This document shows positions 1 through 44,486 of a stretch of 64,000 nucleotides of DNA, piece after piece. The DNA lies in assembly GCF_056746865.1 (NCBI RefSeq), contig NZ_CM163382.1; one strand, given 5' to 3'. Under the pieces are notes generated by a model that saw nothing but the letters and a program-made list of their open reading frames with translations, did not search any database and was not told the DNA's origin. Made by a program: the position numbers and the translations under genes. Each line of letters starts with the position of its first letter. Within the stretch, counting starts at the first letter, position 1.

Positions 1-1
1 G

Positions 2-1054
2 GTCTGGGCACTGTGCAATGACACGGCCTGTTCTGCAGCCATGCTGCTGGCGTCGGCCTGCTCCCGACGGCTGGTTACCCAGACATCCCGTATCGGCTCC
101 ATTGGCGTGATGATGAGCCATGTCAGCTATGCCGGTCATCTGGCGCAGGCCGGTGTGGATATTACGCTGATTTATGCCGGGGCGCACAAGGTGGATGGCA
201 ATCAGTTTGAAGCGTTGCCGGCAGAGGTTCGCCAGGATATGCAGCAGCGGATTGATGCGGCGCACCGGATGTTTGCCGAAAAAGTGGCGATGTATACCGG
301 GTTGTCTGTGGATGCGGTCACGGGAACAGAGGCCGCCGTTTTTGAAGGTCAGTCCGGCATTGAGGCCGGGCTGGCGGATGAATTAATCAATGCGTCGGAT
401 GCCATCAGTGTGATGGCCACGGCGCTGAACAGTAATGTCAGAGGAGGCACTATGCCGCAATTAACTGCAACGGAAGCCGCCGTGCAGGAGAACCAGCGAG
501 TGATGGGGATCCTGACATGCCAGGAAGCGAAAGGACGTGAACAGCTTGCCACGATGCTGGCAGGGCAACAGGGCATGAGCGTTGAACAGGCCCGGGCGAT
601 TCTGGCCGCGGCGGCACCGCAGCAGCCGGTGGCATCCGCACAGAGTGAAGCCGATCGCATTATGGCGTGTGAAGAAGCGAACGGTCGTGAACAACTGGCA
701 GCAACGCTGGCGGCGATGCCGGAGATGACGGTGGAAAAAGCCCGCCCGATCCTGGCTGCTTCACCGCAGGCGAATGCCGGACCATCACTCCGTGATCAGA
801 TCATGGCACTGGATGAGGCAAAAGGGGCTGAGGCGCAGGCTGAACAGCTGGCTGCCTGCCCGGGAATGACTGTGGAGAGCGCCCGGGCTGTGCTGGCTGC
901 GGGATCAGGTAAGGCAGAACCGGTCTCTGCATCCACAACCGCCCTGTTTGAACATTTCATGGCGAACCATTCACCGGCTGCGGTCCAGGGGGGCGTGTCA
1001 CAGGCGTCAGAAGACGGTGATGCGGACGTGAAAATGCTCATGGCCATGCCATGA
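2..1054 (+). CDS. Prohead protease/scaffold protein (lambda C/Nu3-like, S49 peptidase family), 5' end cut by window edge
   Basis: Reading frame is open from base 2. ClpP/S49-like segment followed by an Ala/Glu-rich scaffold region with three internal repeats, immediately upstream of a D-like gene. Confidence 0.7.
   Translation, partial: VWALCNDTACSAAMLLASACSRRLVTQTSRIGSIGVMMSHVSYAGHLAQAGVDITLIYAGAHKVDGNQFEALPAEVRQDMQQRIDAAHRMFAEKVAMYTGLSVDAVTGTEAAVFEGQSGIEAGLADELINASDAISVMATALNSNVRGGTMPQLTATEAAVQENQRVMGILTCQEAKGREQLATMLAGQQGMSVEQARAILAAAAPQQPVASAQSEADRIMACEEANGREQLAATLAAMPEMTVEKARPILAASPQANAGPSLRDQIMALDEAKGAEAQAEQLAACPGMTVESARAVLAAGSGKAEPVSASTTALFEHFMANHSPAAVQGGVSQASEDGDADVKMLMAMP
503..904 (+). 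repeat. Three tandem imperfect ~35-codon repeats inside the scaffold region
   Basis: Protein-level repeats CQEAKGREQLATMLAGQQGMSVEQARAILAAA / CEEANGREQLAATLAAMPEMTVEKARPILAAS / LDEAKGAEAQAEQLAACPGMTVESARAVLAAG. Confidence 0.5.
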
Positions 1055-1090
1055 AGTCAGTGCTGACCATCAATATGAGGTTTTAACAAA

Positions 1091-1438
1091 ATGGTGACGA
1101 AAACCATCACTGAACAGCGTGCGGAAGTACGTATTTTTGCCGGTAATGATCCGGCTCATACCGCCACAGGCAGCAGCGGGATTTCTTCTGCAACACCGGC
1201 TCTGACGCCCCTGATGCTGGATGAAGCCACCGGGAAACTGGTGGTCTGGGATGGACAGAAAGCCGGTAGTGCGGTTGGCATACTGGTACTGCCGCTTGAA
1301 GGCACAGAGACGGTGCTGACCTATTACAAGTCGGGGACCTTTGCGACGGAGGCAATCCGCTGGCCTGACAGTGTGGATGAACACAAAAAGGCAAATGCCT
1401 TTGCCGGCACAGCCCTGAGTCACGCGGCGCTGCCGTAA
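1091..1438 (+). CDS. Head decoration protein (lambda D-like)
   Basis: 115 aa, conserved PAHTAT...TPLMLD...KSGTF...AFAGTA pattern of lambda gpD. Sits between C/Nu3 and the E-like start. Confidence 0.75.
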   Translation: MVTKTITEQRAEVRIFAGNDPAHTATGSSGISSATPALTPLMLDEATGKLVVWDGQKAGSAVGILVLPLEGTETVLTYYKSGTFATEAIRWPDSVDEHKKANAFAGTALSHAALP

Positions 1439-1495
1439 CACGTTATCAGGCCACCATGGCGGCCTGACTGATTTCTGAATGAAAGGAACTGATTT

Positions 1496-2416
1496 ATGGG
1501 ATTGTTTACGACCCGCCAGTTACTCGGTTATACCGAACAAAAAGTGAAATTCCGTGCGCTGTTTCTGGAGCTGTTTTTCCGCCGTACGGTGAATTTCCAC
1601 ACCGAAGAGGTGATGCTGGACAAAATTACCGGAAAAACGCCGGTGGCGGCCTATGTCTCCCCAATCGTTGAAGGAAAAGTGCTTCGCCATCGCGGTGGTG
1701 AAACCCGCGTGTTACGTCCGGGCTACGTCAAGCCCAAACACGAATTTAGCACGCCGGAGGGGGAGCGGTATATCCCTTGTGTGAATATTTCCGCGGAGCC
1801 GGAGGCGTATTTTCGTATCGCACCGGAAGACTGGCTGCGGGCAGAGATGCAGGGGGAGATTGTGGCACTGGTCCACAGTCATCCCGGTGGGCTGCCCTGG
1901 CTGAGCGAGGCTGACCGGCGGCTGCAGATAAAAAGCGCACTGCCCTGGTGGCTGGTCTGCCGGGGTGACATTCACAAATTCCGCTGTGTGCCACATCTGA
2001 CGGGACGGCGCTTTGAGCACGGGGTGACGGACTGTTACACGCTGTTCCGGGATGCTTATCATCTGGCGGGGACTGAAATGCCGGATTTTCATCGCGAGGA
2101 TGACTGGTGGCGCAACGGCCAGAACCTGTACCTGGACAACCTGGCGGAAAACGGCTTTTGCCGGGTGTCTCCGTCCTCTGCACAGGCAGGCGATGTGCTG
2201 CTGTGCTGCTTTGGATCATCGGTGCCGAATCATGCCGCCGTTTACTGTGGTGACGGCGAGCTGCTGCACCATATTCCTGAACAACTGAGTAAACGGGAGA
2301 GGTATTCCGAAAAATGGCAACGACGAACGCATTCAGTCTGGCGTCACCGCCACTGGCACGCATCCGCCTTTACGGGGATTTACAACGATTTGGCCGCCGC
2401 CTCAGCCTGTATGTGA
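1496..2416 (+). CDS. Chimeric ORF: first ~84 aa of major capsid protein (lambda E-like) fused in frame to tail assembly protein K (JAMM/MPN plus NlpC/P60)
   Basis: N-terminus FTTRQLLGYTEQKVKF...YVSPIVEGKV...PGYVKPKHEF matches the lambda gpE N-terminus. Downstream are the JAMM motif (E...HSHPGG...SEAD) and NlpC/P60 Cys/His (DCYTLF...NHAAVY) typical of gpK. The 3' end overlaps the I gene as in lambda. Confidence 0.75.
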   Translation: MGLFTTRQLLGYTEQKVKFRALFLELFFRRTVNFHTEEVMLDKITGKTPVAAYVSPIVEGKVLRHRGGETRVLRPGYVKPKHEFSTPEGERYIPCVNISAEPEAYFRIAPEDWLRAEMQGEIVALVHSHPGGLPWLSEADRRLQIKSALPWWLVCRGDIHKFRCVPHLTGRRFEHGVTDCYTLFRDAYHLAGTEMPDFHREDDWWRNGQNLYLDNLAENGFCRVSPSSAQAGDVLLCCFGSSVPNHAAVYCGDGELLHHIPEQLSKRERYSEKWQRRTHSVWRHRHWHASAFTGIYNDLAAASACM

Positions 2417-2994
2417 ACACGGCAGCGGAAGCCATTCGCGCCCTGTCGATGCAGATGCCGGGCTTTCGCCGTCAGATGAACGAAGGCTGGTACCAGATAC
2501 GTATTGCCGGTGATGACACGGCACCGGAGGCGGTGTACGCCCGTCTTCACGAACAGCTGGGTGAGGGAACGGTCATCCATATTGTGCCGCGACTGGCCGG
2601 GGCCGGAAAGGGTGGACTGCAGATTGTGCTGGGGGCGGCAGCCATCGTGGGCTCTTTCTTCACTGCCGGTGCCTCGATGGCGTTATGGGGTACAGCCCTG
2701 AGTGCCGGCGGTTTTTCTGCCACCACGATGCTGTTTTCACTGGGGGCCAGCATGATACTGGGCGGTGTGGCCCAGATGCTGGCCCCGAAGGCAAAAACAC
2801 CGGATTACCGCGCAACGGATAACGGCAGACAGAACACGTACTTTTCCTCGCTGGATAACATGATTGCCCAGGGGAACCCGATGCCGGTGCCTTACGGGGA
2901 AATGCTGGTTGGCTCCCGCCGTATATCCCAGGACATCAGCACCCGTGATGAAGGCGGGGGCGGAAAGGTCGTGGTTATCGGGCGGCAGGGGTAA
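2314..2994 (+). CDS. Tail assembly protein I
   Basis: 226 aa, lambda gpI-like (LYGDLQRFGRR...GWYQIRIAGDD...QNTYFSSLDNM...), overlaps the 3' end of K. Confidence 0.85.
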   Translation: MATTNAFSLASPPLARIRLYGDLQRFGRRLSLYVNTAAEAIRALSMQMPGFRRQMNEGWYQIRIAGDDTAPEAVYARLHEQLGEGTVIHIVPRLAGAGKGGLQIVLGAAAIVGSFFTAGASMALWGTALSAGGFSATTMLFSLGASMILGGVAQMLAPKAKTPDYRATDNGRQNTYFSSLDNMIAQGNPMPVPYGEMLVGSRRISQDISTRDEGGGGKVVVIGRQG

Positions 2995-2997
2995 AAA

Positions 2998-3097
2998 GAA
3001 TAAAAAAATCCCGCAGTGATCGCGGACAGGAACTGCGGGAGAGTTACGAAGATTAAGTGTAAGGAATTATTCTTATGTCACGACAAAAAAATTAACG
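2998..3097 (-). ncRNA. Candidate small RNA (prophage moron) between I and J
   Basis: Minus-strand sigma70-like promoter (TTCACA-16 bp-TATAAT) followed ~100 nt later by a GC stem (CCCGCAGT...ACTGCGGG) and a U-tract. No plausible ORF in the transcribed segment. Confidence 0.3.
3010..3039 (-). terminator. Rho-independent terminator, minus strand
   Basis: 8-bp GC-rich stem CCCGCAGT/ACTGCGGG followed on the minus strand by ATTTTTTTATTCTTTTT. Confidence 0.5.
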
Positions 3098-3104
3098 CAG
3101 AGAA

Positions 3105-3132
3105 ATTATACGCGCCACAGTCAGTTTGTGAA
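3105..3132 (-). promoter_or_regulatory. Predicted sigma70 promoter for the I-J intergenic transcript
   Basis: Minus-strand -35 TTCACA (plus 3127-3132), 16-bp spacer, perfect -10 TATAAT (plus 3105-3110). Confidence 0.35.
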
Positions 3133-3170
3133 AATGTGAAGATATTCAGAATTTTTATTCAGTCATGATA

Positions 3171-3200
3171 CAGGCATCCTCCGGGGTGCCTGTTGTTTTT
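3171..3200 (+). terminator. Rho-independent terminator-like hairpin just upstream of J
   Basis: Stem CAGGCA.../...TGCCTG followed by TTGTTTTTT on the plus strand. Confidence 0.4.
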
Positions 3201-3244
3201 TGGGCATAAACAGATTCAGACATCAGACAGGAGAGGGGGAGCGA

Positions 3245-6200
3245 GTGGGTAAAGGTGGCGGTAAGGCGCACACACCGCGCGAGGCGAAGGATAATCTCAA
3301 ATCCACGCAGATGATGAGTGTGATTGATGCGATTGGTGAGGGACCGATAGAAGGTCCGGTGAAGGGACTGCAGAGTATCCTGGTGAACAAAACCCCGCTG
3401 ACGGACACGGACGGTAATCCCGTGATACACGGTGTGACCGCGGTCTGGCGTGCCGGGGAGCAGGAGCAGACACCACCGGAAGGCTTTGAGTCCTCCGGAG
3501 CTGAAACCGGACTGGGCGTGGAAGTGACGAAGGCAAAACCGGTGACGCGCACCATTACGTCCGCGAACATTGACCGCCTGCGGGTTACCTTCGGGGTGCA
3601 GTCACTGGTGCAGACCACGTCAAAGGGTGACCGTAACCCGACATCCGTCCGCCTGCTGATTCAGTTACAGCGTAACGGTAACTGGGTGACAGAAAAGGAC
3701 GTCACCATTAACGGCAAGACCACCTCACAGTTCCTGGCCTCGGTGATTCTGGATAATCTGCCTCCCCGGCCCTTTAACATCCGGATGGTCAGGGAGACGG
3801 CGGACAGCACCACGGACCAGCTGCAGAATAAGACGCTGTGGTCGTCATACACCGAAATCATCGATGTGAAACAGTGCTACCCGAACACGGCCATTGTGGG
3901 GCTGCAGGTGGATGCGGAGCAGTTCGGCGGCCAGCAGATGACGGTGAACTACCATATCCGCGGTCGCATCATCCAGGTGCCGTCAAACTATGACCCGGAA
4001 AAACGCACGTACAGTGGTATCTGGGACGGCAGCCTGAAACCGGCATACAGCAACAACCCGGCCTGGTGTCTGTGGGACATGCTGACTCACCCGCGCTACG
4101 GCATGGGAAAACGTCTGGGGGCGGCGGATGTGGACAAGTGGGCGCTGTATGCCATCGGGCAGTACTGCGACCAGACGGTCCCGGATGGTTTCGGGGGGAC
4201 CGAGCCGCGGATGACCTTTAATGCGTACCTGGCACAACAGCGTAAGGCGTGGGACGTTCTCAGTGATTTCTGCTCTGCGATGCGCTGTATGCCGGTATGG
4301 AACGGCCAGACGCTGACGTTCGTTCAGGACCGTCCGTCGGATGTGGTGTGGCCGTACACCAACAGCGATGTGGTGGTGGATGATAACGGCGTGGGTTTCC
4401 GCTACAGCTTCAGTGCCCTGAAGGACCGGCACACGGCAGTGGAGGTGAATTACACCGACCCGCAGAACGGCTGGCAGACCTCCACGGAACTGGTGGAAGA
4501 CCCGGAAGCCATACTGCGCTACGGACGCAACCTGCTGAAGATGGACGCGTTCGGCTGTACCAGCCGCGGTCAGGCCCACCGTGCCGGGCTGTGGGTGATA
4601 AAGACCGAACTGCTGGAAACGCAGACGGTGGATTTCACGCTCGGGTCACAGGGGCTGCGTCACACACCCGGTGACATCATTGAAATCTGTGATAACGACT
4701 ATGCCGGGACCATGACCGGCGGACGTGTCCTGTCCATCGATGCCGCCAGCCGTACCCTGACGCTGGACCGGGAGGTGACACTGCCGGAGACCGGCACGGC
4801 CACTGTTAATCTGATTAACGGCAGCGGTAAGCCGGCGAGCGTGGCCATCACCGCACACCCCGCGCCTGACCGGATACAGGTCAGCACCCTGCCGGATGGT
4901 GTGGAGACATACGGTGTGTGGGGACTCTCCCTGCCGTCACTGCGTCGTCGCCTGTTCTGCTGTGTCTCCATCCGGGAAAACACGGACGGCACGTTCGCCA
5001 TCACGGCGGTGCAGCACGTACCGGAAAAAGAAGCCATTGTGGATAACGGGGCCAGCTTTGAGCCGCAGTCAGGCAGCCTGAACAGCGTTATCCCACCGGC
5101 AGTGCAGCACCTGACGGTGGAGGTGAGTGCAGCTGACGGTCAGTATCTGGCACAGGCGAAATGGGACACGCCGCGGGTGGTGAAGGGTGTGCGCTTCAGT
5201 CTGCGTCTGACCAGCGGAAGCGGAGAAGACAGCCGTCTGGTGAGCACCGCCATCACCGCAGACACGGAGCACCGTTTCAGTGGTCTGCCGCTGGGGGAAT
5301 ACACCCTGACGGTGCGGGCCATTAACAGCTACGGCCAGCAGGGCGAACCTGCGACCACCACCTTCCGGATTAACGCGCCTGCAAAACCCGCCACCATTGA
5401 GCTGACGCCGGGGTATTTTCAGATAACGGCGGTCCCGCGTCTTGCGGTGTATGACCCGACGGTACAGTTTGAATTCTGGTTCTCAGAAAAACGCATCACG
5501 AACACGGCACAGGTGGAAAAATCTGCCCGTTATCTGGGGACCGGCAGTCAGTGGACTGTCCAGGGGAGCCGGATTAAGCCGGGGACGGATTTCTGGTTTT
5601 ACGTGCGAAGCGTCAACCTGGTGGGAAAATCTGCTTTTGTGGAAGCCAGCGGGCAGCCCAGCAATGATGGTGAAGGGTATCTGGAAATTTTCCGGGGGCT
5701 GATAGATGAGACGCTTCTGGGCCAGGCACTGAAAGAGCGCATTGATGCTTCAGCGCTGCGTACGGAGGTCACGCAACTGGAAGAAGACATCCGTCAGCGG
5801 ATGGACACGGATATCGCAGAAGTGACCCGGAAAATCGGGGAGGCGGAAAACAGCCTCACGCAGCTGGTTGCGAAAAAGAATGAGGACCAGACACTGGCCA
5901 TCGCGCAGGTGAGCCAGAAAGTGGACCGGGTGAGCAGTGAAATCTCACAGACTGTCAGCCAGGGGCAGTCAGAAAATGCCCGACAGATAGCACAGGTCCG
6001 CCAGTACGTGGATAAAAAAGGGAGTGAAATTACCTCGACCACGGATAAAAAACTGGGTGACCAGGCCGTGACCATACAGCAAATCCAGCGGGTTCAGTCA
6101 GACACGCGCAATGAGCTGAATGCCATGTATATGCTGAAGGTGCAGAAAACAAAAAACGGTATTCCCTATGTGGCCGGGATTGGTGCGGGGATTGAGGATG

Positions 6201-6937
6201 TTGATGGTCAGACGCTGAGCAGTATTCTGCTGCAGGCTGACCGTATCGCGATGATTACCCCGGAGAACGGCAACACCACGCCGCTGTTTGTGGCGCAGGG
6301 GAATCAGCTGTTCATGAACGACGTGTTCCTGAAGCGACTGTTTGCGGTGAGCATCACGTCATCCGGCAATCCTCCGACGTTTTCCCTGACGCCGGATGGC
6401 AGGCTGACAGCCCGCAATGCGGATATCAGTGGAGCCATCACGGCGAATACCGGCACGCTCAATAATGTCACCATTAACGAGAACTGTGTCATCAGAGGGA
6501 AACTGTCTGCAAACCAGATTGAAGGCGATCTCGTTAAAACAGTGGGTAAGGCTTTCCCTCGTGACTCCCGTGCACCGAAGCGGTGGCCATCAGGAACCAT
6601 TACCGTCAGGGTTTATGACGATCAGCCGTTTAACCGGCAGATTGTTATTCCGGCGGTGGCTTTCAGCGGTGCCAGACATGAGCGGGAGAACAGCGATACT
6701 TATTCGTCATGCCGCCTGATAGTGAAGAAAAACGGTGCTGAAATTTATAACCGTACCGCGCTGGATAATACGCTGATTTACAGTGGTGTTATTGATATGC
6801 CAGCTGGTCGCGGCCACATGACGCTGGAGTTTTCTGTATCAGCATGGTGGGTAAATGGCTGGTATCCCACAGCAAGTATCAGCGATTTGCTGGTTGTTGT
6901 GATGAAGAAAGCCACTGCAGGCATCACGATTAGCTGA
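3245..6937 (+). CDS. Host specificity / central tail fiber protein J
   Basis: About 1230 aa, collinear with lambda gpJ ([21 protein letters not shown]...). Start is probably GTG at 3245 after a GGAG-rich SD; the TTG at 3200 in the ORF track is unlikely. Confidence 0.9.
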
Positions 6938-6956
6938 ATTTTATAACCCCAATACG

Positions 6957-6980
6957 GGCGCCAGAAATGGTGCCTTTTTT
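6957..6980 (+). terminator. Terminator-like hairpin after J
   Basis: GGCGCC-AGAAAT-GGTGCC (one G-U pair) followed by TTTTTT. Confidence 0.4.
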
Positions 6981-7004
6981 ATTGCAGAAAAGCGAGAGGT
7001 AATT

Positions 7005-7604
7005 ATGCGTAAAGTTTGTGCAGCCATTTTGTCCGCAGCCATCTGTCTGTCCGTATCCGGTGCGCCTGCATGGGCGTCTGAACATCAGTCCACACTGAGC
7101 GCAGGGTATCTTCATGCCCGTACGAACGCTCCCGGCAGCGATAATCTGAACGGGATTAACGTGAAATACCGTTATGAGTTTACGGACGCGCTGGGGCTGA
7201 TTACGTCCTTCAGTTATGCCAATGCTGAGGATGAGCAAAAAACGCACTACAGCGATACCCGCTGGCATGAAGATTCCGTGCGTAACCGCTGGTTCAGCGT
7301 GATGGCGGGGCCGTCTGTACGCGTGAATGAATGGTTCAGCGCGTATGCGATGGCGGGTGTGGCTTACAGCCGTGTGTCGACTTTCTCCGGGGATTATCTC
7401 CGCGTAACTGACAACAAGGGGAAAAAGCACGATGTGCTGACCGGAAGTGATGACGGTCGCCACAGCAACACGTCTCTGGCGTGGGGAGCTGGCGTGCAGT
7501 TTAACCCGACCGAATCCGTGGCCATTGATGTCGCTTATGAAGGCTCCGGCAGCGGTGACTGGCGTACCAACAGTTTCATCGTTGGTGTCGGTTATAAGTT
7601 CTGA
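7005..7604 (+). CDS. lom: Lom-family outer membrane protein (Ail/Lom/PagC beta-barrel)
   Basis: 199 aa with signal peptide and the C-terminal ...AYEGSGSGDWRTNSFIVGVGYKF of lambda Lom. Lies between J and stf as in lambda. Confidence 0.85.
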   Translation: MRKVCAAILSAAICLSVSGAPAWASEHQSTLSAGYLHARTNAPGSDNLNGINVKYRYEFTDALGLITSFSYANAEDEQKTHYSDTRWHEDSVRNRWFSVMAGPSVRVNEWFSAYAMAGVAYSRVSTFSGDYLRVTDNKGKKHDVLTGSDDGRHSNTSLAWGAGVQFNPTESVAIDVAYEGSGSGDWRTNSFIVGVGYKF

Positions 7605-7630
7605 TTAGCCAGGTAACACAGTGTTATGAC

Positions 7631-7658
7631 AGCCCGCCGGTTCAGGCGGGCTTTTTTG
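7631..7658 (+). terminator. Rho-independent terminator after lom
   Basis: AGCCCGCC-GGTTCAG-GGCGGGCT followed by TTTTTT. Confidence 0.6.
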
Positions 7659-7668
7659 TGGAGTGGAT

Positions 7669-10600
7669 ATGGCAGCAGTAAAAATCTCAGGTGTGCTGAA
7701 AGATGGCACAGGAAAACCAGTACAGAACTGCACCATTGTGCTGAAGGCCAGACGAACCAGCAGCACGGTGGTGGTGAACACGGTGGCCTCTGAAAATCCG
7801 GATGAAGCCGGACGTTACAGCATGGATGTTGAGCATGGCCAGTACAGCGTCACCCTGCTGGTTGAAGGTTTTCCGCCTTCACATGCCGGGACCATTACCG
7901 TCTATGAAGGTTCCAGACCAGGTACGCTGAATGATTTTCTCGGTGCCATGACGGAGGATGATGTCCGACCGGAGGCACTGCGCCGCTTTGAGCAGATGGT
8001 GGAAGAGGTGTCACGTAACGCCTCCGCGGTTGCACAGAATACGGCAGCCGCGAAAAAATCAGCCAGCGATACCAGTGCATCAGCCAGCGAGGCGGCAACT
8101 CATGCAACCGATGCTGCAGCCTCAGCACGTGCCGCCAGCACGTCAGCCGGACAGGCCGCGTCGTCGGCTCAGTCAGCGTCTTCCAGCGCAGGAACGGCAT
8201 CGACAAAGGCCCGTGAAGCAGCAAAAAGTGCTGCTGCTGCAGAGTCATCAAAAAGCGCGGCAGCTACCAGCGCCAGTGCCGCGAAAACGTCAGAAACGAA
8301 TGCCGCAGCATCACAAAAATCGGCAGCCACTTCTGCATCCACAGCGACCACGAAGGCGTCAGAAGCTGCCACCTCGGCACGGGGTGCGGCGGCCTCAAAA
8401 GAGGCAGCGAAATCTTCAGAAACGAATGCATCATCAAGTGCCAGTAGTGCAGCTTCCTCGGCAACGGCGGCAGGAAATTCCGCGAAGGCGGCAAAAACGT
8501 CCGAGACGAACGCTAAGTCTTCTGAAACAGCAGCGGGACAGAGCGCCTCAGCTGCGGCAGGTTCAAAAACAGCGGCTGTATTATCTGCCAGTGCCGCGTC
8601 AACAAGTGCCGGGCAGGCCTCAGCCAGTGCCACCGCCGCCGGAAAATCGGCAGAAAGCGCCGCATCATCCGCTTCAACAGCCACAACGAAGGCTGGCAAA
8701 GCCACTGAGCAAGCCACTGCAGCAGCGAGGTCTGCTTCTGCAGCAAAAACCTCTGAAACAAATGCAAAGACTTCAGCAGACAATGCTGCTTCCTCTAAGG
8801 CGGCAGCCGCATCGTCAGCCAGTTCAGCGGCGTCATCGGCATCATCTGCGTCTGCTTCAAAAGATGAGGCGACCAGACAAGCGTCAGCAGCGAAAGGTAG
8901 TGCCACGACAGCAACAACGAAAGCATCAGAGGCGGCAGGCAGTGCGACGGCTGCATCTCAGAGCAAAGTTGCTGCTGAATCCGCGGCAACGCGCGCCGAG
9001 ACAGCAGCAAAACGGGCAGAGGATATTGCATCCGCCGTGGCGCTGGAGGATGCGAGCACGACGAAAAAGGGGATAGTACAGCTCAGCAGTGCAACAAACA
9101 GCACCAGTGAAAAGCTGGCGGCAACGCCAAAGGCAGTTAAAACTGTTAAAGATAGTTCAGTTCAAAAAACTGGCGACACAATGGGAGGGCAGTTAAAAAT
9201 CAGCACGATAAATGCTCTTCGAATATTCAACCAAGCCTTTGGCCTTATTTTTAGGCGTTCCGAAGATCATCTTCATCTTATTCCGACTAATGAAGGGGAG
9301 GGGGAAAATGGAGACATCGGTTCATTAAGACCATTCTCTATAAACTTAAGATCAGGGTTGGTGTCCATCGGTAATGGACTAAAAGTTGGTGGTAGTGTTA
9401 CTGGTAATTTGACCGGAAACGCAGATACTGCGACCAAGATCAAGACAGCACGTAAGATTGGGGGCGTGGCATTTGATGGATCGGCAGATATCAACTTGCC
9501 TGGAGTCAACGCTACCGGTAATCAAAACACTACAGGTAATGCTGCGACCGCCACGAAACTTCAGGCAGCCAGAACGATTAACGGTGTGTCATTTGATGGT
9601 AGTGCAAATATCACATTGACCCCTTCAAATATTGGGGCATTGGCATTAACTGGAGGGACTCTTTCAGGTGGTTTAACTGCTGCTGGTGAGGTTATTTCAA
9701 GGTCAGCAAATGGTCTGCGTATTGCCTATGGCAACTATGGATTCTTTATCCGAAATGATGGATCAAACACATATTTTATGTTGACAGATTCGGGTAACAG
9801 TCTTGGTACGCACAATAGCTTAAGGCCGTTTATAATTAGTAACCATACTGGCAATGTTACAATTGCAACTAAATTAAACGCGAGTGGTGGTATCACTGGA
9901 TCTTTATCGGGTAATGCAAGCACAGCAACCAAATTGCAAACTGCAAGGACAATTAACGGCGTAAAATTTGACGGCTCGGCAAATATTGAAGCGTTTCCGC
10001 CAGGTGTTCCGCTGCCGTGGCCATCAGATACACCACCTGCAGGTTATGCAATCATGCAGGGGCAGACGTTTGATAAGGCAGCATATCCGAAACTGGCTAT
10101 TGCCTATCCTTCAGGTGTTATTCCAGATATGCGCGGCTGGACAATCAAGGGCAAACCCGCCAGTGGCCGGGCCGTATTGTCTCAGGAACAGGACGGCATT
10201 AAATCGCACACCCACAGCGCCAGCGCATCCAGTACGGATTTGGGGACGAAAACCACATCGTCGTTTGATTACGGCACTAAATCCACGAATAACACCGGGG
10301 CGCATACGCACAGTCTGAGTGGCTCTACGGGGTCTGCCGGTGTTCATACTCATGGTAATGGTATTCGTTGGCCAGGAGGCGGCGGTTCTGCGTTAGCATT
10401 TTATGATGGCGGTGGGTTCACTTATGTCCAGAATTCACAGTATCAAGTAAGCCCGGAGACTTCTTCCTATAGATCGTATTATCAACGTATTCAGACACAG
10501 TCAGCAGGTGCTCATACCCACTCGCTGTCTGGTACTGCAGCAAGTTCTGGCGCACATGCACATACTGTAGGTATTGGTGCGCATACGCACTCCGTTGCGA

Positions 10601-10698
10601 TTGGTTCACATGGACACACCATCACCGTTAACGCTGCGGGTAACGCGGAAAACACCGTCAAAAACATCGCATTTAACTATATTGTGAGGCTTGCATAA
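7669..10698 (+). CDS. stf: Side tail fiber protein Stf
   Basis: N-terminus [21 protein letters not shown]... like lambda Stf, long Ala/Ser-rich TSETNA repeat region, C-terminal GAHTHS repeats. ATG at 7669 has a GGAG SD 5 nt upstream (the track's GTG at 7663 is less likely). Confidence 0.85.
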
Positions 10699-11282
10699 TG
10701 GCATTCAGAATGAGTGAACAACCACGGACCATAAAAATTTATAATCTGTTGTCCGGAACTAATGAATTTATTGGTGAAGGTGATGCATATATTCCGCCTC
10801 ATACAGGTCTGCCAGCAAACAGTACCGATATTGCACCGCCAGATATTCCGGCTGGCTTCGTGGCTGTTTTCAATAGTGATGAGTCATCGTGGCATCTCGT
10901 TGAAGACCATCGGGGTAAAACGGTTTATGACGTAGCGTCAGGGGACGAGTTATTTATTTCTGAACTCGGTCCGTTACCGGAAAATGTTACCTGGTTATCG
11001 CCGGAAGGGGAGTTTCAGAAGTGGAACGGCACAGCCTGGGTGAAGGATACGGAAGCAGAAAAACTGTTCCGGATCCGGGAGGCGGAAGAAACAAAAAACA
11101 ACCTGATGCAGGTAGCCAGTGAGCATATTGCGCCGCTTCAGGATGCTGCAGATCTGGAAATTGCAACGGAGGAAGAAACCTCATTGCTGGAAGCCTGGAA
11201 AAAGTATCGGGTGTTGCTGAACCGTGTTGATACATCAACTGCACCTGATATTGAGTGGCCTACGAACCCTGTCAGGGAGTAA
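10698..11282 (+). CDS. tfa: Tail fiber assembly protein Tfa
   Basis: 194 aa, start overlaps the stf stop (TAATG), Tfa-like sequence. Confidence 0.8.
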
Positions 11283-11336
11283 TCATTGGGATTATGCCGC
11301 AGCACGTCTTAAGCAAGAACGTGCTGCGGTTGGATG

Positions 11337-12005
11337 CTATTTTTTCCCTGAAGCGGAAAACATTACTACAGTACCTTGAACCTTGGTTTTAACATTCTCG
11401 AAATGCTCTGAGAGTATATGTGTTAAGCCTTCTTCGGAATCTTTTGTGTTTGAAAAGATGCCTTTCTGATTGTAAATGCGCATCAGTTTTTGACCGAAGC
11501 TATTGTGCACAACTCCATCGCCAAGAATTGTGGCTCCGTATAGAGTTCCATCGTCAGTTAAGGCCTGCGCCGCATTGCGTATTACACAGCTTTTTGTAGA
11601 TATATTTCCAGGCAGGCAGTGAAGAAGGTAAAACATGGAAATGGAATCAAATTGACCATGTAACGCCGCGGGATAAGGTTCAAAAACATCATGGCTAATT
11701 TTATGTTTAATTTTTGATTCCCCAGCCCTTGTAGATGCCGCGTTCAGGCTAGCTTCGTTCAAATCCATTAAAGATATCAGACTACTCTCAGGTACGTGAG
11801 TAAGGTAAAACCCAGTTCCAACACCAATATCCAGATGGTTGTTACCTAAATGTTCCAGAAAGTGTGGAAGAAGGTGTTCCTTTGTAGGACATCCCCATGC
11901 AAGCCGATTTGATACTCCCAAAACCCACCAGTCATAAAGCTTTAGGGTAAGTGGTGTGTAAATTTTAGCCCCATCATCTGTGTTTTTTTTCATTGATTTC
12001 ACCAT
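11337..12005 (-). CDS. Class I SAM-dependent methyltransferase (prophage cargo gene, substrate unknown)
   Basis: Rossmann motif I LDIGVGTGF, about 220 aa, AT-richer than neighbours, opposite strand between tfa and a tfa fragment. More likely start is ATG at 11993 (GGTGA SD). Confidence 0.6.
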   Translation of the reverse strand: MVKSMKKNTDDGAKIYTPLTLKLYDWWVLGVSNRLAWGCPTKEHLLPHFLEHLGNNHLDIGVGTGFYLTHVPESSLISLMDLNEASLNAASTRAGESKIKHKISHDVFEPYPAALHGQFDSISMFYLLHCLPGNISTKSCVIRNAAQALTDDGTLYGATILGDGVVHNSFGQKLMRIYNQKGIFSNTKDSEEGLTHILSEHFENVKTKVQGTVVMFSASGKK

Positions 12006-12024
12006 GTTATAGTTTTATTTGTAA

Positions 12025-12053
12025 ATTAAATCAATTATGGCGATGAATTACAA
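12025..12053 (-). promoter_or_regulatory. Predicted sigma70 promoter of the methyltransferase gene
   Basis: Minus-strand TTGTAA-17 bp-TTTAAT just upstream of the ATG. Confidence 0.3.
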
Positions 12054-12061
12054 GGGGTTAA

Positions 12062-12328
12062 ATGCTGCCGCAGCATAGCGATATTGAAATAGCCTGGTAT
12101 GCTTCGATACAGCAGGAGCCGAATGGCTGGAAGACCGTCACCACACAGTTCTACATCCAGGAATTCAGTGAGTATATTGCGCCACTGCAGGATGCTGTAG
12201 ATCTGGAAATCGCAACGGAGGAAGAAAGATCGTTGCTGGAGGCATGGAATAAATATCGGGTGTTGTTGAATCGTGTTGATACATCAACTGCACCTGATAT
12301 TGAGTGGCCGACTTCACCTGCAGAGTAA
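12062..12328 (+). pseudogene. Tail fiber assembly protein fragment (duplicated tfa 3' end with unrelated N-terminus)
   Basis: 88 aa. The C-terminal ~50 aa ([18 protein letters not shown]...DIEWPT) nearly repeats the C-terminus of the full tfa at 10698-11282. Confidence 0.55.
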
Positions 12329-12560
12329 TCAACGGCGCAGGGATGATATTTTGTGCTTGAAGTGCCTCCCCGACCATTCAGATAGTCGGGGAGGGGGGAT
12401 TGGGATTATACGCAATCAGTTTTAGTTAAAGACCGAAGTTCTCGAAAAATCTTTCTCCAAAACCAGAATGCAATTGATTGATTTTGATAGGATCTATAAT
12501 GCCGTTACCTTAAACGGCAAAACCACTCAAAAACAAACCTAATGCATTGAATATAAAGGA
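12329..12560. other. Prophage-chromosome junction region (candidate att site) with a 10-bp-stem hairpin at 12365-12394
   Basis: Non-coding segment between the tfa fragment and the potB stop. The ATG immediately after the potB stop is followed by only a 9-codon ORF, not a potC-length reading frame. Confidence 0.4.
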
Positions 12561-13424
12561 TTAATCATCTAATTCGCTCACCTTCTTATTCAGCAAACGA
12601 GAAGCGCGCCAGTAAACCAGCAACATCAGGCCCATTACGATAGTCAGCGTAATGCTGGTGGCTGCACCAAACGGCCAGTCACGAATATTGAGGAACTGTA
12701 CTTTGATGACGTTACCGATCAGCAGGTTTTTCGCACCGCCCATCAGGTCGGACACATAGAACAGGCCCATCGCTGGCAGCATCACCAACAGGCATCCGGC
12801 AATAATCCCCGGCATCGTCAGTGGGATAATGATACGGATAAAGGTCTGCAACTTGCTGGCACCGAGATCGCGCGCCGCCTCCAGCAACGGCTTATCCAGT
12901 TTTTCGATACTCGAGTACAGCGGCATCACCATAAACGGCAGCAGAATGTAAACCAGACCGATAATCACCGCACTGGGTGTGAACATGATGCGAATTGGTG
13001 TATCGATAACGCCCAGCCAGAGCAAAAACTCGTTGAGATAGCCTTTGGTGCTGAGGAAAATTTTCAGCCCGTAGATACGAATCAATGAGTTGGTCCAGAA
13101 CGGAACAATCAGCAGAAACAGCAGCAGCGGACGCACCTTGTGTGGCAGCTTCGCCAGAAACCAGGCAAAAGGATAGCCCAGCACCAGGCAGGCGAGGGTG
13201 GCGATCAGCGCCATATTCAGCGAGTGCAATAGCACTTCAAAATAGAGCGGATCGAGCAGACGCGTGTAGTTATCCAGCGTAAAGACCATTTTGACGAAAC
13301 TGGCGTCGTCGCGGGTCAAAAAGCTGGTGCCAATGATCATCAGGTTGGGCAGAAAGACAAACAACACAAGCCAACCGACAATAGTGACAATCACTACATT
13401 CTGGAACTTACTTGTGTTCTTCAT
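12561..13424 (-). CDS. potB: Spermidine/putrescine ABC transporter permease PotB
   Basis: Protein matches PotB and overlaps the potA 3' end. An internal start near 13388 would give the shorter annotated form. Confidence 0.9.
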
Positions 13425-14544
13425 CAGCCAGTACGACCTCCCAGCTTTCTACCCAATTAATGGCCATTTTTTGGTCGAGAGAGTGGTCAAAGTCAGGATC
13501 GTCTTCATTGAAGAATTCGCTGACCATCACCATCTTGCCATTTTCCAGTTCAACAACCGACTCCAGCGTCATGCCTTTGTAGTTACGCTCGCGAACGTAA
13601 CCAATCAGCCCTTCAGCGTGGTTGTCGTCGTTAATCTCTTCAACACGTAAGTCTTCCGGGCGCAGCAGAACATGCAGTTTTTGCCCCGGTTCAACGGCGA
13701 AGTTAACGTAGATATTACATTCGCGGCCTTCAACGTTGGCGCGTACGCGCTGCTCGTCGAGACGTTCGATGACAGTGGCGTTAAACATATTGATTTCGCC
13801 AATAAACCCAGCAACAAACAGGTTTTTCGGCTCTTCATAGATTTCACGCGGCGTGCCGTCTTGCTCAATGCGACCATCGCGCATCACCACAATCCTGTCC
13901 GACATGGTGAGTGCTTCTTCCTGGTCGTGAGTCACGAAGACGAATGTAATGCCAAGCTTACGCTGTAACGCTTTCAGCTCGTTCTGCATTTGCTTGCGCA
14001 GTTTGTAATCCAGCGCTGAGAGCGACTCATCCAGCAACAACAGACGAGGCTTGTTAACCACCGCGCGGGCAATGGCGACGCGTTGCTGTTGACCACCAGA
14101 GAGCTGATGCGGTTTGCGTTGAGCGAAGGTTTCCAGCTGCACCATCCGCAGGGCTTCCATCACGCGGGGCGTAATTTCAGCAGCGGGGGTTTTTTGCATG
14201 CGTAACCCAAAGGCCACATTTTCGAACACGGTCATGTGGGGGAAAAGTGCGTAGCTTTGGAAAACAGTGTTCACATAGCGGTTTTCCGCCGGAACGTGGG
14301 TGATGTCCTCGTTATCCAGCATGATGCGTCCGGAATCAACAGTTTCCAGACCTGCAATCAGGCGAAGAACGGTTGTTTTACCGCAGCCAGAAGGGCCAAG
14401 CAGCGTGAGGAACTCGCCATTGTTGATAGTCAGATCCAGCTGGGGAATGACCTCTTTACCATCAAAGCATTTGCGAATTCCCGCCAATTGCACCAGCGGT
14501 GAAAGCGAACTCGGTTGTTTATTCAATTTTTTACTCTGTCCCAT
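13408..14544 (-). CDS. potA: Spermidine/putrescine ABC transporter ATPase PotA
   Basis: 378 aa with Walker [10 protein letters not shown] and signature [13 protein letters not shown]. Confidence 0.95.
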
Positions 14545-24072: not shown

Positions 24073-25323
24073 ATGGAAAGTAAAGTAGTTGTTCCGGCAC
24101 AAGGCAAGAAGATCACCCTGCAAAACGGCAAACTCAACGTTCCTGAAAATCCGATTATCCCTTACATTGAAGGTGATGGAATCGGTGTAGATGTAACCCC
24201 AGCCATGCTGAAAGTGGTCGACGCTGCAGTCGAGAAAGCCTATAAAGGCGAGCGTAAAATCTCCTGGATGGAAATTTACACCGGTGAAAAATCCACACAG
24301 GTTTACGGTCAGGATGTCTGGCTGCCTGCTGAAACCCTTGATCTGATTCGTGAATATCGCGTTGCCATTAAAGGCCCTCTGACCACTCCGGTTGGTGGCG
24401 GTATTCGTTCTCTGAACGTTGCCCTGCGCCAGGAACTGGATCTCTACATCTGCCTGCGTCCGGTACGTTACTATCAGGGCACCCCAAGCCCGGTTAAACA
24501 CCCTGAACTGACCGATATGGTTATCTTCCGTGAAAACTCGGAAGACATTTATGCGGGTATCGAATGGAAAGCAGACTCTGCCGACGCTGAGAAAGTGATT
24601 AAATTCCTGCGTGAAGAGATGGGCGTGAAGAAAATTCGCTTCCCGGAACATTGCGGCATCGGTATTAAGCCGTGTTCTGAAGAAGGTACCAAACGTCTGG
24701 TTCGTGCAGCGATCGAATACGCAATTGCTAACGATCGTGACTCTGTGACCCTGGTGCACAAAGGCAACATCATGAAGTTCACCGAAGGCGCGTTTAAAGA
24801 CTGGGGCTACCAGCTGGCGCGTGAAGAGTTTGGCGGTGAACTGATCGACGGCGGCCCGTGGCTGAAAGTTAAAAACCCGAATACCGGCAAAGAGATCGTC
24901 ATTAAAGATGTGATTGCTGATGCATTCCTGCAACAGATCCTGCTGCGTCCGGCTGAATATGATGTTATCGCCTGTATGAACCTGAACGGTGACTACATTT
25001 CTGACGCTCTGGCTGCACAGGTCGGCGGTATCGGTATCGCCCCAGGCGCAAACATCGGTGACGAATGCGCCCTGTTTGAAGCCACCCACGGTACTGCGCC
25101 GAAATATGCCGGTCAGGACAAAGTAAACCCAGGCTCTATTATTCTCTCCGCTGAGATGATGTTACGCCATATGGGCTGGACTGAAGCCGCAGACCTGATT
25201 GTTAAAGGTATGGAAGGCGCAATCAACGCCAAGACCGTAACCTATGACTTCGAACGTCTGATGGAAGGCGCTAAATTGCTGAAATGTAGCGAGTTTGGTG
25301 ATGCGATCATCAAGAACATGTAA
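24073..25323 (+). CDS. icd: Isocitrate dehydrogenase (NADP)
   Basis: 416 aa, full-length Icd. Confidence 0.97.
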
Positions 25324-25346: not shown

Positions 25347-25378
25347 AACGGGCGTATAACACGCCCGTTGTTTTATTT
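25347..25378 (+). terminator. icd rho-independent terminator
   Basis: AACGGGCGT-ATAAC-ACGCCCGTT followed by GTTTTATTT. Confidence 0.7.
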
Positions 25379-44154: not shown

Positions 44155-44486
44155 AATCATTCGCCTCTTTAAATATATAAATTGTAATGAAACTCCTGTT
44201 TTACAACTATTAATGAATTTTACTTCATCTAATTCATAGTTAGCCGGGCGAGATGCGTCAATGTCTTTATTTCTATTAATATGATAAATATCAAACAATG
44301 TTTAATGTCATTATGGCGAATGCTTCTATTCTATTTTTAGCCGGGTGATATTTTTCATTTCTGCTGGATGAGCGTCGTCGCCAGAAGGCCGCGTGAGCAC
44401 AGGATAAGAGAACGAAAAATCAGCAGTCTATGCAGCGACAAATATTGATAGCCTGAATCAGTATTGATCTGCTGGCAAGAACAGAC

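What the first reader, a model, noticed from the sequence alone, without database searches (positions are those of the whole stretch)
1496..2416. In-frame fusion of the major capsid protein N-terminus to tail protein K marks a large internal prophage deletion
The ORF begins with ~84 residues that align with the N-terminus of lambda gpE and continues as a gpK-like JAMM plus NlpC/P60 protein, followed by I and J. Everything lambda encodes between E and K (head completion, tail tube, tape measure and related genes, roughly 10 kb) is missing. The prophage cannot build capsids or tails on its own, yet retains intact J, lom, stf and tfa.
Basis: partly seen in the sequence, partly recalled or inferred. 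Interest (0 to 1): 0.45.

Follow-up and report, generated by a model that had tools for sequence, protein, structure and literature searches.

The report
Recent 7.8-kb deletion in a prophage
A lambda-like prophage in this E. coli genome has lost exactly 7,836 bases of head and tail genes, which joined the start of the capsid gene in frame to most of tail gene K; this is ordinary, very recent prophage decay.

Summary
ORF 1496-2416 (306 aa) has two parts. Residues 1-84 are the first 84 residues of the prophage's own major capsid protein (lambda gpE family). Residues 85-306 are residues 26-247 of its gpK-type tail assembly protein.

An intact copy of the same prophage sits at the same chromosomal site in E. 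coli CFSAN061770, EF5-18-41 and EC31. It is 100% identical to the window on both sides of the junction. That places the breakpoint at window 1748/1749.

The loss is 7,836 bp (3 x 2,612, so in frame), not about 10 kb. It removes the E body, FI, FII, Z, U, V, G/T, H, M, L and the first 25 codons of K. The two parental ends share only 1 nt, and no IS element or repeat lies at the junction, so this looks like illegitimate recombination.

The junction appears in no other sequence searched: 5,426 complete E. coli genomes, IMG/VR, GTDB representatives, JGI metagenomes and a 15-billion-protein set.

The K part has lost the conserved N-terminal Glu motif of its JAB domain. The chimera is most likely an inert by-product. 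I, J, lom, stf and tfa are open, but with zero divergence from the intact relative their retention says nothing about selection. Interest is low.

The parts
1..1054 (+). 3' part of the head protease/scaffold gene (lambda C/Nu3 type, S49 peptidase), cut by the window edge
   Evidence: 100% identical to the S49 family peptidase gene of the intact relative
1091..1438 (+). Head decoration gene (gpD type), intact
   Evidence: ORF; annotated as head decoration protein in the identical relative
1496..2416 (+). Chimeric ORF E'-'K, 306 aa, using E's own start codon and ribosome-binding site (AAAGGAA 8 nt upstream)
1496..1748 (+). E-derived part: codons 1-84 of the major capsid gene; base 1748 (A) is shared with the K side
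   Evidence: Identical to the relative's E up to base 1748; Pfam Phage_cap_E model 1-81/329
1748..1749 (.). Deletion junction: 7,836 bp present in the intact relative are missing here, with 1 nt of microhomology
1749..2416 (+). K-derived part: K codons 26-247 plus the stop codon
   Evidence: 100% identical to the relative's K from this base on; 88% identical to lambda K residues 26-244
1763..1987 (+). Truncated JAB/MPN domain. The HSHPGGLPWLSEAD motif (HxHx7SxxD, nt 1874-1915) is kept; the N-terminal PxExCG Glu motif is lost
   Evidence: Pfam Prok-JAB model 34-113/114 here against 3-113 in intact K; alignment of intact K to PDB 2kks; motif positions
2003..2344 (+). Complete NlpC/P60 (C40 peptidase) domain
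   Evidence: Pfam NLPC_P60 model 1-105/105
2413..2994 (+). Tail assembly gene I, open; its start overlaps the stop of the chimera as it does in the intact phage
3245..6937 (+). Tail tip/host-specificity gene J, 1,230 aa, open
7005..7604 (+). lom (Ail/Lom outer membrane protein), open
7669..10698 (+). Side tail fibre gene stf, 1,009 aa, open
10698..11282 (+). Tail fibre assembly gene tfa, 194 aa, open

Best explanation
The window carries the right half of a lambda-like prophage that abuts potB. A single, very recent spontaneous deletion removed 7,836 bp from the late operon. The deletion runs from codon 85 of the major capsid gene E to codon 25 of tail gene K.

The two ends were joined without homology (1 shared nucleotide, no IS element, no repeat). 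This points to illegitimate end-joining or replication-slippage-type recombination; that mechanism is inferred, not shown.

The deleted length happens to be a multiple of three. E's start codon and ribosome-binding site therefore now drive a 306-aa chimera: 84 aa of capsid N-terminus, then K residues 26-247. It still overlaps the start of I.

The chimera is most likely a functionless by-product. The capsid part is a quarter of an HK97-type fold. The K part has lost the first 25 residues of its JAB domain, including the conserved Glu. Every partner needed to build a tail tip or tube (L, M, H, G/T, V, U, Z) is gone.

The prophage can no longer make heads or tails by itself. It could only be packaged if co-resident lambdoid prophages supplied the proteins.
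For: Shown:
- Window 1-1748 and 1748-11370 are identical, without a single mismatch, to two stretches of the E. coli CFSAN061770 prophage that lie 7,836 bp apart.
- That 7,836-bp stretch encodes E (rest), FI, FII, Z, U, V, G, T, H, M, L and the start of K.
- It occurs nowhere else in the window.
- It is present in full in 1,551 of 5,426 complete E. coli genomes, and at 100% identity in three strains whose flanks match the window at 100%.
- The breakpoints share 1 nt. The +/-60-nt neighbourhoods share no more than shuffled sequence does (longest common word 6 direct, 8 inverted; shuffles mostly 6-8).
- Domain truncations.
- The junction and the chimera were found nowhere else.

Context:
- Independent chimeras of the same kind exist as singletons: tail tube V'-'K (P0039) and tape measure H'-'K (P0044). 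Another E. coli prophage has a D'-'T junction.
- Deletions of morphogenesis genes are common in lambdoid prophages, and co-resident prophages can complement them (PMC2669165).
- gpK is a non-virion assembly factor with JAB and NlpC/P60 domains (PMC1779556; PMC10721106).
Against: No read-level data are available, so an assembly or culture artefact cannot be excluded. The junction is unique to this sequence, which fits either a private recent mutation or an error.

The left half of the prophage lies outside the window, so its overall state is unknown here. The identical relative already carries an IS3 insertion and frameshifted early genes. Non-function of the chimera is inferred from domain content and was not tested.
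Confidence: 0.8

Rival explanations
1. The junction is not in the dominant genome of the strain. It would instead be an assembly error, a minority variant fixed by the assembler, or a mutation that arose during laboratory passage.
For: The junction is absent from every collection searched and the protein is absent from 15 billion sequences. E. coli genomes usually hold several near-identical lambdoid prophages (median 3 places per genome, up to 18), which are hard to assemble.
Against: Repeat-driven misjoins occur inside shared sequence, and here the two parental sites share only 1 nt. Both flanks are otherwise perfect for more than 11 kb. A clean loss without rearranged or duplicated bases is what real deletions look like. 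Analogous real-looking chimeras exist elsewhere.
Confidence: 0.13
2. The chimera is a functional, selected gene. It might be a poison subunit or decoy, made from the late operon, that disturbs capsid or tail-tip assembly of related phages. Or it might be a K variant that still processes gpI.
For: The fusion is in frame. It keeps E's translation signals, the HxHx7SxxD motif, a complete NlpC/P60 domain and the overlap with I.
Against: In-frame joining has a 1-in-3 chance. There is zero sequence divergence from the intact parent, so there has been no time for selection. The allele is a singleton. The JAB Glu motif and first strand are lost. Only 81 of 329 capsid-model positions remain.
Confidence: 0.03
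3. The N-terminal 84 residues are a native extension of K-like proteins in this phage group, not a capsid fragment.
For: None found.
Against: Large K clusters (thousands of members) are 245-247 aa. None of the best 120 hits has Phage_cap_E. Best phage K matches start at query residue 84-86. The 84 residues are identical to the first 84 of the neighbouring strain's 342-aa capsid protein.
Confidence: 0.01

Closest known systems
Intact lambdoid prophage next to potB in E. coli CFSAN061770 (NZ_CP023142.1), EF5-18-41 and EC31
   Same: 100% nucleotide identity on both sides of the junction, with the same gene order (C, D, E ... K, I, J, lom, stf, tfa, methyltransferase) and the same chromosomal neighbour, potB.
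   Different: These strains carry the 7,836 bp with E (342 aa), FI, FII, Z, U, V, G, T, H, M, L and a full 247-aa K. The window does not.
Bacteriophage lambda gpE and gpK
   Same: The N-terminus is 53% identical to gpE. The rest is 88% identical to K residues 26-244 of resequenced lambda. The gene order is that of the lambda late operon.
   Different: In lambda, E and K are separate genes about 7.8 kb apart. Here they form one ORF, lacking about 258 residues of E and 25 residues of K.
Defective lambdoid prophages of E. coli O157 Sakai (Asadulghani et al. 2009, PMC2669165)
   Same: These are lambdoid prophages with deletions or disruptions of morphogenesis genes. Such defects are the rule rather than the exception, and packaging may be rescued by co-resident prophages.
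   Different: This is a different prophage, host lineage and lesion. No experimental data exist for this one.
Other deletion-derived K chimeras in public E. coli data (P0039 tail tube V'-'K; P0044 tape measure H'-'K) and the D'-'T junction in strain Z1323CEC0018
   Same: Each is an internal late-operon deletion that joins an upstream structural gene to a downstream tail gene. The two K chimeras join an upstream gene in frame to the distal part of K. Both are singleton clusters.
   Different: The left and right breakpoints differ, so these are independent events.

Membership tests
Lambda gpE-type major capsid protein (Pfam Phage_cap_E, PF03864) | Significant sequence match to the family profile | tested here: met
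   i-Evalue 5e-13, aa 5-85; 53% identity to lambda gpE
Lambda gpE-type major capsid protein (Pfam Phage_cap_E, PF03864) | Full-length capsid fold (about 340 aa covering the whole profile) | tested here: not met
   Only model positions 1-81 of 329 are present; the relative's E is 342 aa
gpK / TAPK tail assembly protein (JAB + NlpC/P60) | Complete NlpC/P60 (C40) domain | tested here: met
   Pfam NLPC_P60 model 1-105/105, aa 170-283
gpK / TAPK tail assembly protein (JAB + NlpC/P60) | Complete JAB/MPN domain | tested here: not met
   Model positions 34-113 only, score 31.1, against 3-113 and 58.4 in the intact K
gpK / TAPK tail assembly protein (JAB + NlpC/P60) | JAMM metal-binding motif HxHx7SxxD | tested here: met
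   HSHPGGLPWLSEAD at aa 127-140
gpK / TAPK tail assembly protein (JAB + NlpC/P60) | Conserved N-terminal Glu of the JAMM motif (PxExCG) | tested here: not met
   The motif lies at K residues 18-23 (PAESCG) and aligns to PNEACG of the JAB protein PDB 2kks. K residues 1-25 are deleted
gpK / TAPK tail assembly protein (JAB + NlpC/P60) | Genomic position between L and I-J | tested here: inconclusive
   I and J follow as expected, but L is deleted and D lies upstream instead
Defective (cryptic) lambdoid prophage | Lambda-type late gene order, with loss of essential morphogenesis genes relative to an intact relative | tested here: met
Defective (cryptic) lambdoid prophage | Inability to produce infectious particles unaided | not testable with these tools
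   Inferred from lambda genetics: E, FII, Z, U, V, G/T, H, M, L and K are required for plaque formation (established knowledge)
Homology-, microhomology- or IS-mediated deletion | A repeat of several nucleotides, or an IS element, at the breakpoints | tested here: not met
   Only 1 nt is shared; flanks are no more similar than shuffled sequence; there is no inserted DNA

The most novel reading that the evidence does not exclude
The E'-'K chimera would be made in large amounts from E's translation signals when any late transcription occurs. It could act as a dominant-negative decoy that interferes with capsid or tail-tip assembly of co-resident or superinfecting lambdoid phages. That would give the host a freshly born anti-phage function.
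Probability: 0.02. Interest if true: 0.5.

Novelty: new member of a known kind. Interest (0 to 1): 0.1.

Why it matters
The wider significance is small. This is a clean, base-exact example of the first step of prophage decay. A homology-independent deletion is caught so early that the intact parent still exists, at 100% identity, in sister strains.

It may help strain typing, or serve as a natural case for studying illegitimate recombination and chimeric ORF birth. It also warns annotators that a 306-aa 'C40 peptidase' here is really a gene-fusion scar. It opens no new biological question.

Tried and rejected
- **Native N-terminal extension of K.** Rejected.
- **Relocation or inversion instead of loss.** Rejected: the 7.8-kb segment has no blastn or tblastx match elsewhere in the window.
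- **Homology, microhomology, inverted repeats or IS at the breakpoints.** Nothing beyond 1 nt.
- **Recurrence of the allele.** The 261-nt junction query found no spanning match in 5,426 E. coli genomes. Junction words of 42 and 30 nt found nothing in IMG/VR, GTDB representative genomes or JGI metagenomes. The exact-protein look-up was negative.
- **Whether lambda's annotated 199-aa K shows the JAB N-terminus to be dispensable.** Rejected. The 1982 reference lacks one base there, and resequenced lambdas encode a 247-aa K.
- **Proteins with 80-82% query coverage.** The database hits with that coverage are ordinary 242-247-aa K proteins, not fusions. In the three-way alignment, the N-terminus of intact K lines up only weakly with the E-derived tail of the query. 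The 14 phage records with at least 80% coverage were not inspected individually.
- **The I-J spacer as a known sRNA.** There is no Rfam family. The literature check for Pas/AgvB sRNAs gave no location match.

Full report
**1. What is at the coordinates**

The window holds an ORF at 1496-2416 on the + strand (306 aa, ATG start). Pfam splits it into three pieces:
- Phage_cap_E at residues 5-85, covering only model positions 1-81 of 329.
- Prok-JAB at residues 90-164, covering model positions 34-113 of 114.
- A complete NLPC_P60 domain at residues 170-283.

Against lambda's major capsid protein gpE, the N-terminus is 53% identical, E=2e-28. Against the 247-aa K of a resequenced lambda, residues 85-303 align to K residues 26-244 at 88% identity, E=6e-153.

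**2. The intact parent**

Megablast of window 1-3300 against 5,426 complete E. coli genomes showed many genomes matching 1-1748 and then stopping. Several match at 100%. A 261-nt query centred on the junction found no genome spanning it: left-side matches end and right-side matches begin at base 1748.

In E. coli CFSAN061770 the two halves lie on the same strand of the same prophage. The stretch between them is annotated as major capsid protein, FI, head-tail joining protein, three tail proteins, U, G, T, tape measure, L and the C40 peptidase (K).

A base-by-base comparison gave these results:
- Window 1-1748 is identical to the E side.
- Window 1748-11370 is identical to the K side (9,622 bases, no mismatch).
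- The two sites lie exactly 7,836 bp apart in the relative.

extends the perfect identity to window 25376, and one search shows it column by column for 1749-3300. At the protein level, residues 1-84 equal E 1-84 of the relative and residues 85-306 equal its K 26-247.

The missing 7.8 kb has no match elsewhere in the window, so this is a loss and not a rearrangement. The same 7.8 kb is present in full in 1,551 of 5,426 genomes. It is at 100% identity in CFSAN061770, EF5-18-41 and EC31, the strains whose flanks match the window perfectly.

**3. The junction**

- E side: ...CACGAATTTA|ATTACC...
- K side: ...CGTGATAA|GCACGCC...
- Window...CACGAATTTA GCACGCC...

Only one base (A, window 1748) is common to both ends. 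By my own estimate, about 44% of random joins would share at least one base. The +/-60-nt neighbourhoods share words no longer than shuffled sequences do. No IS element or filler DNA is present.

This is the signature of homology-independent (illegitimate) recombination. Which enzyme pathway made it cannot be told from sequence. The length, 7,836 = 3 x 2,612, keeps the frame, which has a one-in-three chance.

**4. Consequences, shown and inferred**

Shown:
- The prophage lacks the body of E, all of FI, FII, Z, U, V, G, T, H, M and L, and the first 25 codons of K.
- The chimera keeps E's start and Shine-Dalgarno-like AAAGGAA.
- It keeps the HxHx7SxxD motif (aa 127-140) and the full NlpC/P60 domain.
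- It keeps the native overlap with the start of I.
- I, J (1,230 aa), lom, stf (1,009 aa) and tfa have no internal stops.
- The intact K matches Prok-JAB over model positions 3-113.
- K residues 7-25 align to the N-terminus of the JAB protein PDB 2kks, including the conserved PxExCG motif. That segment is what the deletion removed.

Inferred:
- The capsid fragment cannot form an HK97-type fold.
- The JAB domain is probably inactive or misfolded.
- gpK is an assembly factor that is not part of the virion (PMC10721106) and is thought to act with the ubiquitin-like gpI (PMC1779556). It has nothing to assemble when L, M, H and V are absent.
- The prophage therefore cannot make heads or tails unaided. 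This follows from classical lambda genetics (established knowledge).
- Rescue by co-resident lambdoid prophages is conceivable, as shown for O157 Sakai (PMC2669165). It cannot be assessed from a 64-kb window.

**5. How unusual is it**

The specific allele is private. It is absent from:
- 5,426 complete E. coli genomes;
- IMG/VR;
- GTDB species representatives;
- JGI metagenomes;
- a set of 15 billion proteins, as an exact protein.

The kind of event is commonplace. The homologue search returned singleton chimeras joining the tail tube protein (P0039) or the tape measure (P0044) to the distal part of K. It also returned L-K, K-I and antirepressor-K fusions and K proteins with internal duplications. 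A chicken isolate has a D'-'T junction in a related prophage. Normal K proteins form clusters of thousands of members at 245-247 aa, and none carries a capsid domain.

**6. Rivals**

An assembly or culture artefact cannot be excluded without reads. It is disfavoured because misjoins arise inside repeats, and here the parental sites share one base. A selected function for the chimera is not supported: the flanks show zero divergence from the intact parent, and the allele is a singleton. The identical relative already carries an IS3 insertion and several frameshifted early genes. The prophage may thus have been on the way to decay before this deletion.

**7. Verdict**

- 7.8 kb lost, not 10 kb.
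- The JAB domain is truncated.
- Retention of J, lom, stf and tfa carries no evolutionary message.

This is a new, unrecorded instance of a well-known process. Interest is low.

Noticed in passing
window 2995-3244: The 250-bp AT-rich spacer between I and J carries, on the minus strand, a near-consensus sigma-70 promoter (TTCACA-16-TATAAT, 11 of 12, at 3132..3105). About 80 nt downstream lies a hairpin plus T7 terminator (3026..3010). Together they suggest a transcript of about 95 nt. A plus-strand terminator-like hairpin sits at 3170-3193, just before J. The fold z-score is -2.1. No Rfam family matches. Matches to the spacer (at least 80% identity; 17 spanning most of it) occur in 145 phage records, mostly Stx-converting phages, and are unannotated or 'hypothetical' in the records listed. 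In another E. coli a minus-strand sodC occupies this position. This may be an uncharacterised prophage sRNA or the shell of a lost moron.
   Followed up: partly
L003 (lambda NC_001416) 10125-10300, i.e. lambda 14124-14299: The 1982 lambda reference (J02459/NC_001416) lacks one G in the 5' part of K relative to relatives. This splits a 247-aa K into a 76-aa ORF and the annotated 199-aa K. Resequenced lambdas and lambda hybrids have 277 instead of 276 nt here, and PV340536 annotates a 744-nt K. The reference annotation of K as 199 aa therefore probably rests on a one-base error or a strain-specific frameshift.
   Followed up: partly
window about 515-910 (inside the C/Nu3 gene): The scaffold part of the head protease gene contains three tandem copies of a motif of about 45 aa...EA(K/N)G(R/A)EQLA..L(A)..(G/E)M(S/T)VE.AR.(I/V)LAA... 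It is visible in the translation.
   Followed up: no
window 11041-11239 (+) and 44388-44466 (+): Rfam gathering-level hits: IS009 RNA (225 bits) inside the tfa gene, and the C0299 sRNA (112 bits) in the chromosomal part of the window.
   Followed up: no
window 11337-13424: Beyond tfa lie a minus-strand class I SAM-dependent methyltransferase (11337-12005) and a fragment of a second tfa (12155-12328). The prophage then abuts potB (12561-13424, minus strand), followed by potA. The element therefore sits where potC would be expected, inside the potABCD operon. The effect on potC/potD expression was not examined.
   Followed up: no
window about 25376 (just downstream of icd, 24073-25323): Perfect identity to CFSAN061770 and EF5-18-41 stops at 25376. 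EC31 and many others continue at 100% with iraM, ymgK, ymgL, ycgX and bluR. This is a strain-variable point at the known icd-adjacent (e14-type) insertion site.
   Followed up: no
L002 (CFSAN061770) 576-7584: The otherwise intact relative prophage has frameshifted early genes and an IS3-family transposase inserted downstream of the RusA and DUF1133 genes and upstream of the lysis cassette. The 'parent' may already be impaired in late gene expression.
   Followed up: no
proteins P0001-P0003: Some public E. coli K proteins carry internal tandem duplications of 50-110 aa within the JAB or NlpC/P60 region. These are singletons, possibly assembly artefacts or recombination between co-resident prophages.
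   Followed up: no
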